The notes under the pieces were generated by a model, which saw nothing but the letters and a program-made list of their open reading frames with translations, searched no databases and was not told where the DNA came from. A stretch of DNA of 64,000 bases. Origin: Eledone cirrhosa (lineage: Eukaryota). The stretch's first letter is position 1; each line of letters opens with the position of its first letter. Of the stretch, positions 4,072 through 60,832 are shown one piece after another. The stretch spans positions 41,354,001 through 41,418,000 of the forward strand of contig OZ024749.1 of the NCBI GenBank assembly GCA_964016885.1, written 5' to 3'. The position numbers were made by a program, and so were the translations under genes.

Positions 4072-5561
4072 ATTTTCCTTATTTCAAACCACTTATAGTC
4101 AAAAAGAATATTTTAGTTTATTAAATATCTTTTACTTGATATTTGCTGTTCTTTTTGAGAAAAAAACCCAACATTTTTACTTGTCATTCTCCAAATTATT
4201 TCTTCGTGCTCCACTTAAACTCATTGTCTCAAAAAACCTAAACACGTTGACATTAGAACTTCTACAGTTTGGTGTACTACCTCCTGCTCCTCCTCTTTCT
4301 AATGGATTGTTTTATCAACTTGTTACAATTGAACCTCAACTGATGAAGCCAATCTGACTCTTCATTACAACATTTTTACTTCATGTGTGTGTCTCATTGG
4401 TTATTTAATGTTGGAACTATATCACACCTTAAACCCACATGAGTGGTGACTGGAATTTCCTTCAACCAACCAACTCCAAACTTAACTTTGTTTCCTGAAA
4501 CAGTTGATGGATGAACATAATTTAAACAACCTGAATACATTTAAAAAATCATTTACTGATCTTTCCTTTGACCGACTATTTAAACCATCTGTGCTATTCC
4601 AGTGGAAATACTTCAGACCAAATAACATTTAAACTCTTGCCTACAACTGGACATCGATATATATATATATATATACATATATATAATATCCTGTCTCTCT
4701 GATCAAGACAACCCACCTGAACATTAATAGTAACCTCTGCTGTTGTCATCAACTTACACACTATTGTTTCTTACCTTAATTAACTTTTATCTTCTCACCT
4801 TTGTAAGCCTCATTTAACATTTTGTGTGTTGCATAGTTTCATGCAAATTAAACATTGAATTGGAGACAGCCATGACTTGGGATTGGTTTAAAAAAAAAAA
4901 AATTTAAACCAAATTGTACTACCAATAAACCTGCTTTCCCTTCTGTTCACTTGGCCCCAACCCTGGCTAAATCACAAATAATGTGAGTTACTGGTCTATT
5001 TCTCAGATCTCATAATCTAAAATAGAAAATCTACTAGCCTTTTTCGTTCTTTCTTCTTTTTTTTTTTATTTAATCACACGTGTTTTGTAAGTTGTAAATC
5101 TTTGCTTAGTTATTTTAAGAGATTTAAATTTCCATTGTTAATTTAAAATTAATTTGTAATACATTTGATATGTATTATTATTTTAAAACATGTTAGTGCT
5201 AAAGTGTGTATCTCTAGAAAAGTAAGTTTTGGTCCTGAAAATAACATGCTGTCCATTCTAATTAATGGCAATGAAGGAAGAAAGAAATAATTAAACCTCA
5301 CTCTCTATCCCTCTCTCACAAACTGCTGTTGCATTATAAATCTTTTATTGAAGAAGTATCAACATATTTGGCATAATGATAGTTCTTTAAGGAAACCTCT
5401 TTAACTTCTGTTTGCTGTCTACAAATAACCAATCCTTAAAAGTGAACTTGACAAATGTATTATGACAAGAACTCCACAGGGCATTAAGTTTATGAAGTAA
5501 CACACTGATGGATTAGAATACATTTCCTCTCTACAAAGAACAAACAAGTCTTTGTATTTTC

Positions 5562-28687: not shown

Positions 28688-28870
28688 GGACCCCGACGGC
28701 CGAGCTCCTGCCGTTTCAACCGCTAGATCGGAACAGTTCGGATCTAGCTGTTGAAACAGCAGGAGCTCAGCCGTCGGGGTCCCGAATCCTTCAAAGTACA
28801 CACTCTATTGCCCCAAGTATCGAGTACTCTGGGGAGTAATGGCCGAACTCGTTTTTACTACAGCCATTAT
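28688..28870. mobile_element. Fold-back element carrying the 3' half of a hammerhead (family G), between (TA)n runs
   Basis: Palindrome GGGACCCCGACGGC...GCCGTCGGGGTCCC. Relatives at 31930-31985, 39430-39580, 42975-43135, 59683-59775 and 60380-60570. Confidence 0.7.
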
Positions 28871-28871
28871 G

Positions 28872-30970: not shown

Positions 30971-31004
<34 letters not shown>

Positions 31005-31046
31005 GAGAGTAAAACAAAGAAGCCTTCAATACATCAAAAGTCTTTA

Positions 31047-31089
31047 TTAGCCGACAATGTTTCGTCCTATTAAGGACTCATCAGGGCAA
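31047..31089 (-). ncRNA. Type I hammerhead ribozyme (minimal), left arm of an inverted pair
   Basis: Exact reverse complement of the motif at 31354-31396. Confidence 0.85.
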
Positions 31090-31353
31090 TTAAAACAACA
31101 AGAAGTAATATCGTAATAGAAGTAATATATTACATTGTATTATATATAATTCCTGCTCTGTTTAGCTCTAGGTTTTTTTGCTTTGGACTATATTTGTAAT
31201 ATGGTTCTTAATGTTATATACATCCTTAGTAATTTTTATTATATATTTTTATTATTTTTATTATATATTTTTGCAATACTTTAGTGTATGTACACTCCAT
31301 ATTCTTCGGAGCTTCCGGCTTGTATCTGCCGATATTACTTCTTGTTGTTTTAA

Positions 31354-31396
31354 TTGCCCTGATGAGTCCTTAATAGGACGAAACATTGTCGGCTAA
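31354..31396 (+). ncRNA. Type I hammerhead ribozyme (minimal)
   Basis: Stem I GCC/GGC; core CTGATGA 31359-65; stem II GTCCT-TAAT-AGGAC; GAAAC-ATT-GTC; predicted cleavage after GUC at 31390. Confidence 0.9.
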
Positions 31397-31589
31397 TAAA
31401 GACTTTTGATGTATTGAAGGGTTCTTTGTTTTACTCTCTTAATTTTTCGGCTCTGTTTAACTACATTGAGCTATACCTTTTACTGTCATTTCTATAATAC
31501 GAAGAGGGTGTTTAACTCCAACACGCTCCAGTATTTTAACCCTTATATATATATATATATATATATATTTATTGTTTGACCCGAATTAC

Positions 31590-31806: not shown

Positions 31807-32057
31807 GATTAAGAATTGCAGATTTTTGTAAACTTACATATTACATATTACAATTAGGTTTCATATCGATCAGCTCGGGTGTGATCATGTGATTGGATCC
31901 TGACTCCTAATATATATATTATACTAGTAGGGAACTAGCTGTTGAAACGGCAAGAGCTCGGCCGTCGGGGTCCCGACTCTTTATGACATATGTATATATA
32001 TATTTATATATACACACAATGATGCAATATGAGAGGAGGTAAGGAGAGGATGCTCAC

Positions 32058-39339: not shown

Positions 39340-39621
39340 ATATGTATCTATGAATGAATAACAGGAATGTACGTCCATATATGCATATACACTTACACAC
39401 ACCACTCATATATATATATATATATACAACAAAGAAGGTGTGGTAAGATACCAGGTGGACCATAACGCACCAGGGTACTCGATACTTAGGGTAGTAATAC
39501 TGGTGGCTTAGTTCCTTAGTTCGCATCTAGCTGTCGAAAGGGCCGGAGCTCAGCCTTCGGGGTCCTGACTCTTTTCCTATATATAGAGATAGAAAGATAG
39601 ATATAGATATAGATATAGATA

Positions 39622-42932: not shown

Positions 42933-42979
<47 letters not shown>

Positions 42980-43134
42980 GCACCAGAGTACTCTATACTT
43001 AAGATAGTAGAGTGGATAATAGGAAAAGAGTCAGGACCCCGACGGCTGACCTCCGGTCATTTCGACAGTTAGATCCCAACAGATCTAGCTGTCGAAACGG
43101 TCGGAGCTCAGCCGACGGGATCCTGACTCATTTC

Positions 43135-43176
<42 letters not shown>

Positions 43177-44506: not shown

Positions 44507-47100
44507 GGTGGTAGCAGGAAGAGGTTGAAGCTTTGCATTGGTGGTGGTGGTGGTGGAAGTGGTGGTAGCAGGAAGAGGTTGAAGCTTTGCATTGGTGGTG
44601 GTGGTGGAAGTGGTGGTAGCAGGAAGAGGTTGAAGCTTTGCATTGGTGGTGGTGGTGGAAGTGGTGGTAGCAGGAAGAGGTTGAAGCTTTGCATTGGTGG
44701 TGGTGGTGGAAGTGGTGGTAGCAGGAAGAGGTTGAAGCTTTGCATTGGTGGTGGTGGTGGAAGTGGTGGTAGCAGGAAGAGGTTGAAGCTTTGCATTGGT
44801 GGTGGTGGTGGAAGTGGTGGTAGCAGGAAGAGGTTGAAGCTTTGCATTGGTGGTGGTGGAAGTGGTGGTAGCAGGAAGAGGTTGAAGCTTTGCATTGGTG
44901 GTGGTGGTGGTGGAAGTTGTGGTAGCAGGAAGAGGTTGAAGCTTTGCATTGGTGGTGGTGGTGGTGGAAGTGGTGGTAGCAGGAAGAGGTTGAAGCTTTG
45001 CATTGGTGGTGGTGGAAGTGGTGGTAGCAGGAAGAGGTTGAAGCTTTGCATTGGTGGTGGTGGTGGTGGAAGTGGTGGTAGCAGGAAGAGGTTGAAGCTT
45101 TGCATTGGTGGTGGTGGTGGTGGAAGTGGTGGTAGCAGGAAGAGGTTGAAGCTTTGCATTGGTGGTGGTGGTGGTGGAAGTGGGGGTAGCAGGAAGAGGT
45201 TGAAGCTTTGCATTGGTGGTGGTGGTGGTGGAAGTGGTGGTAGCAGGAAGAGGTTGAAGCTTTGCATTGGTGGTGGTGGTGGTGGAAGTGGTGGTAGCAG
45301 GAAGAGGTTGAAGCTTTGCATTGGTGGTGGTGGTAGCAGGAAGAGGTTGAAGCTTTGCATTGGTGGTGGTGGTGGTGGAAGTGGTGGTAGCAGGAAGAGG
45401 TTGAAGCTTTGCATTGGTGGTGGTGGTGGAAGTGGGGGTAGCAGGAAGAGGTTGAAGCTTTGCATTGGTGGTGGTGGAAGTGGTGGTAGCAGGAAGAGGT
45501 TGAAGCTTTGCATTGGTGGTGGTGGTGGTGGTGGAAGTGGGGGTAGCAAAAAGAGGTTGAAGCTTTGCATTGGTGGTGGTGGTGGTAGCAGGAAGAGGTT
45601 GAAGCTTTGCATTGGTGGTGGTGGTGGTGGAAGTGGTGGTGGTGGAAGTGGGGGTAGCAGGAAGAGGTTGAAGCTTTGCATTGGTGGTGGTGGTGGAAGT
45701 GGTGGTAGCAGGAAGAGGTTGAAGCTTTGCATTGGTGGTGGTGGTGGTGGTGGTGGTGGAAGTGGTGGTAGCAGGAAGAGGTTGAAGCTTTGCATTGGTG
45801 GTGGTGGTGGAAGTGGTGGTAGCAGGAAGAGGTTGAAGCTTTGCATTGGTGGTGGTGGTGGTGGAAGTGGTGGTAGCAGGAAGAGGTTGAAGCTTTGCAT
45901 TGGTGGTGGTGGTGGTGGAAGTGGTGGTAGCAGGAAGAGGTTGAAGCTTTGCATTGGTGGTGGTGGTGGTGGAAGTGGTGGTAGCAGGAAGAGGTTGAAG
46001 CTTTGCATTGGTGGTGGTGGTGGTGGTGGTGGAAGTGGGGGTAGCAGGAAGAGGTTGAAGCTTTGCATTGGTGGTGGTGGTGGTGGTGGAAGTGGTGGTA
46101 GCAGGAAGAGGTTGAAGCTTTGCATTGGTGGTGGTGGTGGTGGTGGTGGTGGAAGTGGTGGTAGCAGGAAGAGGTTGAAGCTTTGCATTGGTGGTGGTGG
46201 TGGAAGTGGGGGTAGCAGGAAGAGGTTGAAGCTTTGCATTGGTGGTGGTGGTGGTGGAAGTGGTGGTAGCAGGAAGAGGTTGAAGCTTTGCATTGGTGGT
46301 GGTGGTGGTGGTGGAAGTGGGGGTAGCAGGAAGAGGTTGAAGCTTTGCATTGGTGGTGGTGGTGGTGGAAGTGGTGGTAGCAGGAAGAGGTTGAAGCTTT
46401 GCATTGGTGGTGGTGGTGGTGGAAGTGGTGGTAGCAGGAAGAGGTTGAAGCTTTGCATTGGTGGTGGTGGTGGTGGAAGTGGTGGTAGCAGGAAGAGGTT
46501 GAAGCTTTGCATTGGTGGTGGTGGTGGTGGAAGTGGTGGTAGCAGGAAGAGGTTGAAGCTTTGCATTGGTGGTGGTGGTGGTGGAAGTGGTGGTAGCAGG
46601 AAGAGGTTGAAGCTTTGCATTGGTGGTGGTGGTGGTGGAAGTGGTGGTAGCAGGAAGAGGTTGAAGCTTTGCATTGGTGGTGGTGGTGGTGGTGGTGGAA
46701 GTGGGGGTAGCAGGAAGAGGTTGAAGCTTTGCATTGGTGGTGGTGGTGGTGGTGGAAGTGGTGGTAGCAGGAAGAGGTTGAAGCTTTGCATTGGTGGTGG
46801 TGGTGGTGGTGGAAGTGGTGGTAGCAGGAAGAGGTTGAAGCTTTGCATTGGTGGTGGTGGTGGAAGTGGGGGTAGCAGGAAGAGGTTGAAGCTTTGCATT
46901 GGTGGTGGTGGTGGTGGAAGTGGTGGTAGCAGGAAGAGGTTGAAGCTTTGCATTGGTGGTGGTGGTGGTGGTGGAAGTGGGGGTAGCAGGAAGAGGTTGA
47001 AGCTTTGCATTGGTGGTGGTAGCAGGAAGAGGTTGAAGCTTTGCATTGGTGGTGGTGGTGGTGGAAGTGGTGGTAGCAGGAAGAGGTTGAAGCGTTGTAG
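44507..47100. repeat. Compound VNTR of about 50 units GGTAGCAGGAAGAGGTTGAAGCTTTGCATT(GGT)nGGAAGTGGT
   Basis: Near-identical units that differ by whole triplets, which keeps several frames open. Confidence 0.95.
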
Positions 47101-49615: not shown

Positions 49616-49925
49616 GCCCACGGATCAAATCCAGCCCACGGATCAAATCCAGCCCACGGATCAAATCCAGCCCACGGATCAAATCCAGCCCACGGATCAA
49701 ATCCAGCCCACGGATCAAATCCAGCCCACGGATCAAATCCAGCCCACGGATCAAATCCAGCCCACGGATCAAATCCAGCCCACGGATCAAATCCAGCCCA
49801 CGGATCAAATCCAGCCCACAGATCAAATCCAGCCCACGGATCAAATCCAGCCCACGGATCAAATCCAGCCCACAGATCAAATCCAGCCCACGGATCAAAT
49901 CCAGCCCACAGATCAAATCCAGCCC
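49616..49925. repeat. 18-bp minisatellite GCCCACGGATCAAATCCA x17
   Basis: Read directly; three units carry a G>A variant. Confidence 0.95.
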
Positions 49926-54984: not shown

Positions 54985-55252
54985 ATAACCCTAAGCCTAA
55001 TCCTAACGCTAACCCTAATAACCCTAACTCTGACACTAAATCTAATAACCCTAACCCTAATAACCCTAACCTTAATCCTAACCCTACACCTAAACATAAC
55101 TTTAATCCTAATAACCCTAACCCTAACTTTAACCCTAGCCCTAATCCTAATAACCCTAACCCTAACCCTAATCCGAACCCTAACCCTAACCTTATCCCTA
55201 AACCTAACCATAGCCTTAACCCTAACCCTATCCCTAATAACCCTAACCCTAC
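54985..55252. repeat. Degenerate interstitial telomere-like (CCCTAA)n tract
   Basis: Many CCCTAA/CCTAAT/CCTAAC units (TTAGGG on the minus strand). Confidence 0.8.
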
Positions 55253-58220: not shown

Positions 58221-59482
58221 GTATATATATATATATATACATATATGTATATATATATACATATATATACATATATGTATATATACATATATATATATAT
58301 ACATATATATACATATATGTATATATACATATATATATATACATATATATACATATATGTATATATACATATATATACATATATATACATATATATACAT
58401 ATATGTATATTTATATATATATAAATATACATATATGTATATATATGTATATATGTATATATATGTATATATATGTATATATACATATATGTATATATAT
58501 GTATATATATATATGTATATATACATATATGTATATATATGTATATATATATATGTATATATACATATATGTATATATATGTATATATACATATATGTAT
58601 ATATATGTATATATGTATATATATGTATATATATATATGTATATATACATATATGTATATATATGTATATATATGTATGTATATATATGTATATATATGT
58701 ATATATACATATATGTATATATATGTATATATACATATATGTATATATATGTATATATACATATATGTATATATATGTATATATATATATGTATATATAT
58801 ATATGTATATATATATATGTATATATATATATGTATATATATATATGTATATATATATATATGTATATATATATATGTATATATATATATGTGTACATAT
58901 ATATATATGTATATATACATATATGTATATATATGTATATATATATATATGTATATATATGTATATATATGTATATATATATATGTATATATACATATAT
59001 GTATATATATGTATATATATATATGTATATATACATATATGTATATATATATATGTATATATACATATATATACATATATATGTATATATATATATGTAT
59101 ATATATGTATATATATATATGTATATATATGTATATATATGTATATATATGTATATATATATATGTATATATATGTATATATATATATGTATATATACAT
59201 ATATGTATATATATATATGTATATATACATATATGTATATATATATATGTATATATACATATATGTATATATATGTATATACATATATGTATATATATGT
59301 ATATATATATATATATACATATATGTATATATATGTATGTATATATATATATATATACATATATGTATATATATGTATATATATATATGTATATATACAT
59401 ATATGTATATATATATATGTATGTATATGTATATATATATATATAAATATATATATATAAATAAATATACATACATATATGT

Positions 59483-59529
<47 letters not shown>

Positions 59530-59643
59530 TACATACATATATGTATATATATGTATATATATATATATATAAATATATAAATAAATATATATATATATGT
59601 ATATATAAATATATATATATGTATATATAAATATATATATATG

Positions 59644-59682
<39 letters not shown>
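58221..59682. repeat. About 1.45-kb compound (TA)n/(TATG)/(TACA) microsatellite
   Basis: Read directly from the sequence. Confidence 0.95.
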
Positions 59683-59686
<4 letters not shown>

Positions 59687-59915
59687 AGATTCAGGACCCC
59701 GACGGCTGAGCTCCGGCCGTTTCGAGTACTCTAGTGGGTTATGGTCCACCTGGTATTTTACCACACGCTTTCTGATATATATAAGCAAAGAGATATTTAA
59801 TTTGTTGGTTATTCAACAAATTTATTTATAACAGATTCGAAGCACTCTACAGATTTTCTGGAGTATAATATTCAATGATATTAATAAATGGAAACTATAT
59901 TTATAAAACCATATT

Positions 59916-60377: not shown

Positions 60378-60832
60378 ACGATAGAAATGTGGTAAGGAAC
60401 CAGGTGGACCATAACGCACCAAAGTACTCAATACTTAGGGTAGTAGAGTGGGTAATAGGAACGAGTAGGACCCCGACGGCAGAGCTCAAGCCGTTTCGAC
60501 GGCTAATTCTAGACTCAGAATTAGCCGTCGAAACGGCTTGAGCTCTGCCGTCGGGGTCCTACTCGTTCCTATATATATATATATATAGAGAGAGAGAGAA
60601 AGAGAGAGATGTAACTCTTTATCTATCTGTTTGACTTCCTTTTATTCGACCAATATATGAATCACTCGTGTCCTCTTTACCTTTCACAATCAATCACAAT
60701 CCTTCTATCTCCCCCCCTTCTCTCTATTATCTATTGATCTGTATATTTATTCTGTCACGTTGCTATATACCCTGTTACTCATCGCTCTAGCCATCTGTCT
60801 GTGGCGGTGCTACCAAAGTCTCTATTATATGT

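What the first reader, a model, noticed from the sequence alone, without database searches (positions are those of the whole stretch)
28688..28790. Family G: six copies of a half-hammerhead, three of them as fold-back palindromes
Seen: GAAAC-GGC(loop)GCC-GTC-GGGGTCC forms a long stem III with a GUC site. It occurs at 28.7, 31.9, 39.5, 43.0, 59.7 and 60.5 kb, and no copy has CTGANGA. At 28688, 43020-43135 and 60456-60571 the upstream side is simply the reverse complement, centred 15-20 nt 5' of GAAA. Inference: reverse transcription stops in stem II and the cDNA snaps back and self-primes. Alternatively, the catalytic strand is supplied in trans (a split ribozyme).
Basis: partly seen in the sequence, partly recalled or inferred. 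Interest (0 to 1): 0.7.

Follow-up and report, generated by a model that had tools for sequence, protein, structure and literature searches.

The report
Penelope retroelement ends cut inside hammerhead
These six repeats are short leftover ends of a known kind of animal jumping gene whose full copies carry the whole predicted self-cutting RNA motif; most copies in the genome stop at one fixed point inside that motif, likely because the RNA they were copied from begins there.

Summary
The six copies are real. They are 5'-truncated ends (pLTR plus tail) of a Hydra-clade Penelope-like retroelement inserted in (TA)n; five of six, not three, are head-to-head pairs. An intact copy has a 3,533-bp unit and a 724-aa RT/GIY-YIG frame. 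The missing strand is in cis, about 65 nt upstream: ACCCC-UUGANAA (published U3-A8 variant), with a long helix II that covaries between subfamilies; 6,184 exact matches genome-wide. No trans strand is needed and it is not a MITE. Self-cleavage is untested. What is new is a truncation wall: 76 of 120 sampled copies end 11-22 nt upstream of GAAA (mode -17), past the 3' strand of helix II, at a conserved TYAGTY motif; two other Penelope families in this genome show no wall. Best reading (about 50%): the template RNA starts there, inside the ribozyme loop, and reverse transcription primed at +43 and +122 from both target strands runs off its end. A stall is not excluded; no RNA run was available. 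The scan filed the Hydra/U3-A8 part before on other DNA.

The parts
28688..28734 (-). Copy 1 short arm: element positions about -17 to +30 (0 = G of GAAA), ending in (TA)n
28735..28871 (+). Copy 1 long arm: about -18 to +118, diverged tail, ending in (TA)n
31932..31982 (+). Copy 2: single arm, about -12 (possibly -19) to +39, no inverted partner found
39427..39496 (-). Copy 3 long arm: +54 to about +123 (tail only; does not overlap the short arm)
39497..39578 (+). Copy 3 short arm: -21 to +45, preceded by a short duplication of loop II sequence reaching about -31
42977..43080 (-). Copy 4 long arm: -17 to +87, then (TA)n
43082..43135 (+). Copy 4 short arm: -12 to +45, then (TA)n
59683..59725 (-). 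Copy 5 short arm: -2 to +44, next to the long TA-rich array
59726..59776 (+). Copy 5 long arm: about +65/+72 to +120 (tail only; does not overlap the short arm)
60378..60515 (-). Copy 6 long arm: -18 to +120, subfamily 2, young (97% identical copies elsewhere)
60516..60571 (+). Copy 6 short arm: -14 to +43, then (TA)n

Best explanation
The six repeats are 5'-truncated, mostly head-to-head ends of a Hydra-clade Penelope-like retroelement whose full copies carry the complete hammerhead motif in cis, and they likely lack the catalytic strand because the template RNA begins inside loop II of the ribozyme. Shown: parent element, ribozyme anatomy, two fixed 3' ends (+43/+45 and +120/+125), (TA)n target, and a wall of 5' ends at -17 to -21. 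Inferred: (1) transcription starts at the A of a conserved TYAGTY (Initiator-like, recalled consensus) at -18, so the 5' copy on the transcript is only half a ribozyme and cannot cut itself; (2) the endonuclease nicks both strands of (TA)n and each strand primes reverse transcription internally, one at +43 and one at +122, where the RNA has 3-4 nt of TAT/TTAT match to the target; (3) both cDNAs run off the RNA 5' end and are joined, giving the unequal palindrome; (4) the roughly one in ten long copies come from priming in the downstream pLTR, which holds the whole ribozyme. My odds by step: Penelope/Hydra remnant 0.97; hammerhead fold in the parent 0.9; self-cleavage active in vivo 0.5; two-strand priming 0.65; wall equals RNA 5' end 0.5.
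For: Parent: tandem copy with GAAA at 5354 and 8887 of L301 and an uninterrupted frame between, Met at +213; Hydra motifs. Ribozyme: 82 full-length arms collected; named structure 90.2% paired on 36 aligned arms, double changes at helix II columns 55/104 and 62/98, best of all slid controls; position 7 takes all four bases. Wall: 120 short arms sampled on a 3' anchor only; stop rate 13.6% per nt at -11..-22 against 1.7% at -1..-10 and 0.9% at -23..-64; 11 of 120 reach the core. 71 of the first 100 arms holding -18 lack the element's -19..-25 sequence (counted by eye). Of 51 distinct loci joined straight to (TA)n, 19 end at -17, 14 at -17 to -19, 10 at -18, 8 at -20 to -22 (by eye; the pattern could not see ends past -23 or short of -17). 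Short-read contigs show a tenfold rise in depth across the same place and strand-switch joints at -17/-18 (one sample). TYAGTY columns are 91% identical between subfamilies against 35% for the rest of loop II. Controls: family H 28 of 30 arms and family J 8 of 10 arms keep their core. Two-strand priming: 11 of 89 pairs have arms that do not overlap; both arms usually share subfamily marks (22 against 9 expected, 0 of 2000 permutations, subfamily 2); an anole PLE nicks and extends both strands and starts at two internal sites in vitro (PMC11167929). Penelope has an internal promoter (PMC2377424).
Against: No RNA data. The modal end is -17, one base short of the proposed start, and ends run on to -21/-22. 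An extra G (cap mark) precedes only 4 of 10 clean -18 junctions. I see no good downstream promoter element by eye, and a TATA-like run at about -31 from the site exists only in subfamily 2. TYAGTY could be kept for an RNA tertiary contact instead. In the range open to both arms, truncation is symmetric (13 against 12 of 59), so the 43-against-12 asymmetry is a sampling effect; later deletion at palindrome centres could also make non-overlapping arms. For the ribozyme: 24 of 100 cores have a C3-A8 mismatch; the double changes are one event between two lineages, stems I and III show none; RNAalifold prefers a rival hairpin over GAAA; all three helices exceed 0.5 pairing probability in only 12 of 82 decayed copies. 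Family J is a small sample chosen through full-length hits.
Confidence: 0.55

Rival explanations
1. Same element, but the wall is a reverse-transcription block: a tertiary contact of loop II (for example GUYC with the GGA upstream of stem I) or the bound element protein stops the RT at -17 to -21 on an RNA that holds the whole, uncut ribozyme.
For: TYAGTY conservation fits a structural role equally well; ends spread over several bases; the anole PLE ribozyme is protein-assisted and uncut RNA is its main substrate (PMC11167929).
Against: 92 of 120 arms pass the base and most of the 3' strand of helix II; no strong helix ends at -18..-22 in AT-rich subfamily 2 (folds); family J with a long helix II shows no wall in 10 arms.
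Confidence: 0.27
2. First reader's model, close to the published self-priming model: RT stops in stem II and the cDNA (or an antisense template) folds back and primes the second arm.
For: 36 of 89 pairs are near-symmetric with both ends in -22..-8; arms share subfamily marks; palindromic junctions were read as self-priming in rotifer Penelope (PMC3846280, passages).
Against: Does not explain the wall in copies with no inverted arm (28 of 120); the peak is past stem II; none of 120 has the whole loop II as spacer, which a stem II snap-back would give (by eye); 11 of 89 pairs do not overlap; one pair joins two subfamilies (L256).
Confidence: 0.1
3. The RNA 5' end at about -17 is made by processing: a 3' splice site (YAG before -16) or a nuclease cut in loop II.
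For: TTTAG/TTCAG is a good acceptor by sequence; in Drosophila Penelope an intron end maps at the ribozyme (PMC4209133); 6-8 of 104 ends fall at -16.
Against: More ends include -17 and -18 than stop at -16; no shared upstream exon appears among 100 junctions (by eye).
Confidence: 0.06
4. Split ribozyme: the half copies are substrates cut by a catalytic strand supplied in trans.
For: The two halves could pair in a two-strand format, and thousands of 5' halves exist.
Against: All 82 5' halves examined with context sit in cis with their 3' half (these were found through the 3' half, so free 5' halves were not sought); in palindromic copies the GUC is locked in a long duplex; long-arm ends at the cleavage site are 10 of 100, no higher than microhomology peaks at +14 and +20 (9 each, by eye).
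Confidence: 0.02

Closest known systems
Hydra clade of C-terminal EN+ Penelope-like elements (Craig et al. 2021, PMC8557442; section 11, passages and supplement part 2 of 59 read)
   Same: Single RT plus C-terminal GIY-YIG frame, DKT, RW(K/R), CxCX5C linker, CxxC and CxH flanking E and N, (TA)n target, inverted 5'-truncated copies, tail at one end, hammerhead in the pLTR with an unpaired step at the base of helix II.
   Different: Unit is 3,533 bp (listed Hydra families mostly under 3 kb); tail about 80 nt against the usual 30-40; core U3-A8 or C3-A8 whereas all listed Hydra ribozymes are CUGANGA; loop II about 30-40 nt against 3-10; helix III 5-6 bp with a palindromic loop.
Penelope-associated hammerheads incl. 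the U3-A8 variant of Schistosoma Cercyon elements (Cervera and de la Pena 2014, PMC4209133; parts 1-2 of 4 read)
   Same: Type I, in the pLTR, U3-A8 covariation, large helix II, short helix I, palindromic loop 3, mostly truncated solo or opposite-strand copies.
   Different: Here helix III is long enough to form in a monomer, loop II is long, and about nine in ten copies have lost the core at a fixed point.
PAc (Poseidon) element of Anolis, in vitro (Frangieh et al. 2024, PMC11167929; parts 1-2 of 4 read)
   Same: AT-rich target, both strands nicked and extended, two internal RT start sites that define the tail, uncut RNA as substrate.
   Different: There the start sites are not homologous to the target; here both have 3-4 nt TAT/TTAT match. 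A fixed 5' stop inside the ribozyme is not described in the parts read.
Drosophila virilis Penelope internal promoter (Schostak et al. 2008, PMC2377424; passages and section 15 read)
   Same: Transcription starts inside the pLTR from an internal promoter.
   Different: There the start is upstream of an intron whose end meets helix I; here the proposed start lies within loop II and no RGACGTGY element is seen.
MITEs
   Same: Short, high-copy, palindromic, TA target.
   Different: Arms of unequal length, variable centre, and continuity with an RT-coding parent; not a DNA transposon.

Membership tests
Penelope-like elements (EN+) | Single ORF with RT and GIY-YIG endonuclease | tested here: met
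   724-aa frame with YRDDG and VIY..YIG motifs; best homologue carries Pfam GIY-YIG. The element's own protein hit no Pfam family and no PDB chain, so the domain call rests on motifs and homologues.
Penelope-like elements (EN+) | pLTRs from partial tandem copies; inverted 5'-truncated copy; tail at one end | tested here: met
   L301 tandem with inverted arm; 89 of 120 short arms have an inverted long arm.
Hydra clade | DKT in place of DKG; RWK motif | tested here: met
   SDKTG present; RWR in this protein, RWK or RWR in 11 aligned homologues.
Hydra clade | CxCX5C linker; CxxC and CxH around conserved E and N; no CCHH | tested here: met
   CNCPDGSIC, CNLC..E..N..CKH; no CCHH set seen in the alignment by eye.
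Hydra clade | Insertion into (TA)n | tested here: met
   Both arm ends meet (TA)n (loose ends).
Hydra clade | Canonical hammerhead in the pLTR | tested here: not met
   Core is U3-A8 (74), C3-A8 (24) or U3-G8 (2) in the first 100 rows; a few CUGAGGA copies exist in an older subfamily. A variant of an accessory feature, not of the protein definition.
Hydra clade | Placement within the clade in an RT tree with reference elements | not testable with these tools
   Reference Hydra proteins were not available as tool sequences.
Type I hammerhead ribozyme | Core YUGANRA, GAAA, UH with 3-8 pair | tested here: met
   Met in full copies with UUGANAA; U3-A8 is a natural, in vitro active covariation (PMC3088659 section 8). 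Not met in the six window copies or in C3-A8 copies.
Type I hammerhead ribozyme | Three helices with covariation | tested here: inconclusive
   Helices 88-96% paired; double changes only in helix II and from one lineage split; rival fold predicted.
Type I hammerhead ribozyme | Self-cleavage after GUC | not testable with these tools
   Genomic proxy inconclusive.
MITE | Equal terminal inverted repeats, no RT parent | tested here: not met
   Unequal arms, variable junctions, RT parent.
Non-LTR retrozyme | Non-coding tandem units each with a complete hammerhead | tested here: not met
   The tandem unit is coding; short copies lack the core.

The most novel reading that the evidence does not exclude
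This Penelope family starts its transcript inside loop II of its own hammerhead, so each RNA begins with a disarmed half-ribozyme and ends with a whole one; internal priming at the 5' copy from both target strands gives run-off products like retroviral strong-stop DNA that insert as tens of thousands of small palindromes. The genome would thus record both the transcription start and the two-strand priming mechanism of Penelope inversions.
Probability: 0.4. Interest if true: 0.65.

Novelty: new variant of a known kind. Interest (0 to 1): 0.42.

Why it matters
How Penelope elements form head-to-head ends and what their hammerheads do are open questions in the papers read (self-priming was proposed in PMC3846280; ribozyme function is called unclear in PMC8557442). 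This family gives a sharp, countable genomic signal, more than 11,000 exact short-arm matches, and an intact frame to test with. If the wall is a transcription start, it shows one way an element avoids cutting its own 5' end. If it is a stall, it maps a strong RNA or protein block. The element and the U3-A8 core are themselves ordinary. A practical point: CUGANGA searches with short helix II miss this ribozyme.

Tried and rejected
CTGANGA within 6-34 nt of GAAA: 52 hits, read as chance or junction products. ACCCC-anchored search returned mostly palindromic arms. Pfam and PDB: no hit for the element protein. RNA: no RNA holder listed, so expression was not tested. Arm asymmetry as proof against snap-back: withdrawn after the matched-range count (13 against 12). 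Cleavage-site peak at +23: inconclusive. Cap-derived G: inconclusive. Loop II to stem I pseudoknot: only 3-6 bp by eye, no double change, not claimed. Family K as a control: output swamped by TA repeats, not used. Copy density from 20 random or neighbouring 10-kb stretches: only 2 arms, too few for a histogram. Short-read depth was not used as copy number. Literature: searches found no description of a fixed truncation point or transcription start inside a Penelope hammerhead; most were seen as listings only, subscription papers are not covered, and I read 1 of 59 parts of the Craig supplement plus one term search, so unread supplements may bear on this.

Full report
Numbering: 0 is the G of GAAA on the hammerhead strand; the predicted cut is after the C at +22. 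Counts marked 'by eye' were tallied by me from the rows a call listed.

Observation. The motif is real: 9 arms at six loci, against 0.14 expected. The window lies in a 3.0-Gb genome rich in (TA)n. Mapping each arm on real full-length copies shows five head-to-head pairs and one single arm. One arm ends at +43/+45 and the other at about +120/+125; both then meet (TA)n. No 5' core lies near any of the six.

Parent element. Walking upstream led to a coding element. L301 holds a tandem with GAAA at 5354 and 8887 (unit 3,533 bp, repeats 93.8% identical), an inverted truncated arm, and an uninterrupted frame whose first Met lies at +213. The 724-aa protein has 1,993 homologues at E 1e-30 or better among 7,998 scored and shows YRDDG, DKT, RWR, CNCPDGSIC, a GIY-YIG-type VIY..YIG, and CxxC..E..N..CxH. 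These match the Hydra clade as described in section 11 of PMC8557442. Pfam and PDB gave nothing for the protein itself; no tree with reference elements was possible.

The ribozyme. Long copies read ACCCC-UUGANAA-G, a short internal loop, a helix II of about 6-11 bp closed by a 30-40 nt loop, then GAAA, a 5-6 bp helix III with a palindromic loop, GUC and GGGGU. The 5' half has 6,184 exact matches; of the first 100, 74 are U3-A8, 24 C3-A8, 2 U3-G8, and position 7 takes all four bases (by eye). On 36 arms chosen from the loci to span subfamilies, the named fold is 90.2% paired, above all six slid controls (24-49%), with double changes at two helix II columns that separate the two main subfamilies. 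Against it: those changes are one lineage split; RNAalifold prefers a hairpin over GAAA; all three helices exceed 0.5 in only 12 of 82 individual decayed copies. U3-A8 is published for Penelope ribozymes (PMC4209133) and is active in vitro (PMC3088659); a 35-nt loop II is listed for a Selaginella element. Cleavage was not tested.

The wall. I sampled the first 60 of 946 subfamily 1 and the first 60 of 10,801 subfamily 2 short arms, using anchors that lie only 3' of +15; all 120 were scored. 76 end at -11..-22, 5 at -23..-64, 11 reach the core, 28 end before -11. The stop rate is 13.6% per nt in the wall, 1.7% just before, 0.9% just after. A stricter ungapped walk on the 104 arms without indels puts the mode at -17. 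Of the first 100 of 16,257 arms that hold -18, 71 lack the element's sequence to -25 (by eye). Copies joined straight to (TA)n show the same ends, so the wall does not depend on inversion. Short-read contigs from one sample show a tenfold depth rise across this place, joints at -17/-18, and loose ends at +42 and +122, which argues against an assembly artefact. The wall sits past the 3' strand of helix II, on a TYAGTY motif that is 91% identical between subfamilies while the rest of loop II is 35%. It is family-specific: 28 of 30 arms of family H, which has a compact canonical ribozyme, reach past their core, with ends spread from 13 to about 1,500 nt; 8 of 10 close arms of family J, a family with a canonical core and 38 nt between core and GAAA beside a Hydra-type frame, do too (small and partly selected; 9 more distant rows were left out).

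How the palindromes form. 89 of 120 short arms have an inverted long arm; 11 of these pairs do not overlap at all, which direct fold-back copying cannot give. The wider asymmetry disappears in the range open to both arms (13 against 12), so only the non-overlap counts, and later deletion could mimic it. Both arms usually carry the same subfamily marks in subfamily 2 (22 shared against 9 expected on 32 pairs); subfamily 1 was uninformative (2 against 1.8 on 17 pairs). Each fixed 3' end is followed in the element by TAT or TTAT. Priming from both target strands at two internal sites fits the in vitro behaviour of the anole element. Long-arm ends at the predicted cut site are 10 of the first 100 of 369, level with peaks at +14 and +20 (by eye), so cut RNA was at most a minor template.

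Mechanism. I commit to an RNA 5' end at about -18: an Initiator-like start (consensus recalled, not from a call) inside loop II, internal priming at +43 and +122 on the 5' pLTR, and run-off. Penelope promoters are internal to the pLTR and an Initiator-like sequence was noted in a rotifer pLTR. This step is inferred; a structural or protein block remains at about 0.27. No RNA run was listed.

Earlier scan notes, unchecked AI notes, had already filed a Hydra-clade U3-A8 ribozyme in this genome and an inverted pLTR remnant in another; I reached that reading before opening them. None of the 10 listed notes mentions the wall in the lines shown.

Verdict. A known kind of element with a precedented ribozyme variant. 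The fixed stop inside the ribozyme is a new, testable detail whose cause is open. Interest 0.42.

Noticed in passing
window 31002-31543: Second Penelope-like family (H) as an inverted pair in (TA)n with a compact canonical CUGAUGA hammerhead (Rfam Hammerhead_1, 31.7 bits, below gathering 34). 2,390 anchor matches genome-wide; tails run into a frame about 42% identical to the family G protein.
   Followed up: partly
L071 3269-3330 and L067, L128: Family J: canonical CUGACGA hammerhead with 36-38 nt between core and GAAA, upstream of a Hydra-type frame about 43% identical to family G.
   Followed up: partly
L099 1480-1560 (family G ribozyme): Helix II and helix III have near-identical strands (CGGCU..AGCCG), so they can swap partners into an inactive fold with a hairpin over GAAA; this is favoured in the C3-A8 subfamily. 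Could act as an off switch.
   Followed up: partly
L094 and relatives: A young subfamily carries CUGAGAA, a C3-A8 mismatch (24 of 100 rows), yet spread widely: either the ribozyme is dispensable or it reads as CUGAGA lacking position 7 plus an extra A.
   Followed up: no
L256 (same place as L123): One palindrome joins a subfamily 2 long arm to a subfamily 1 short arm through an A/AAT filler: two templates or a nested insertion.
   Followed up: partly
window 44507-47020: 54-bp tandem array, about 47 copies, strongly G-skewed.
   Followed up: no
window 54986-55251: Degenerate (TAACCC)n array, telomere-like, inside the chromosome.
   Followed up: no
window 49616-49925 and 58222-59682: 18-bp array of 17 near-identical copies; 1.46-kb TA-rich array abutting copy 5.
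   Followed up: no
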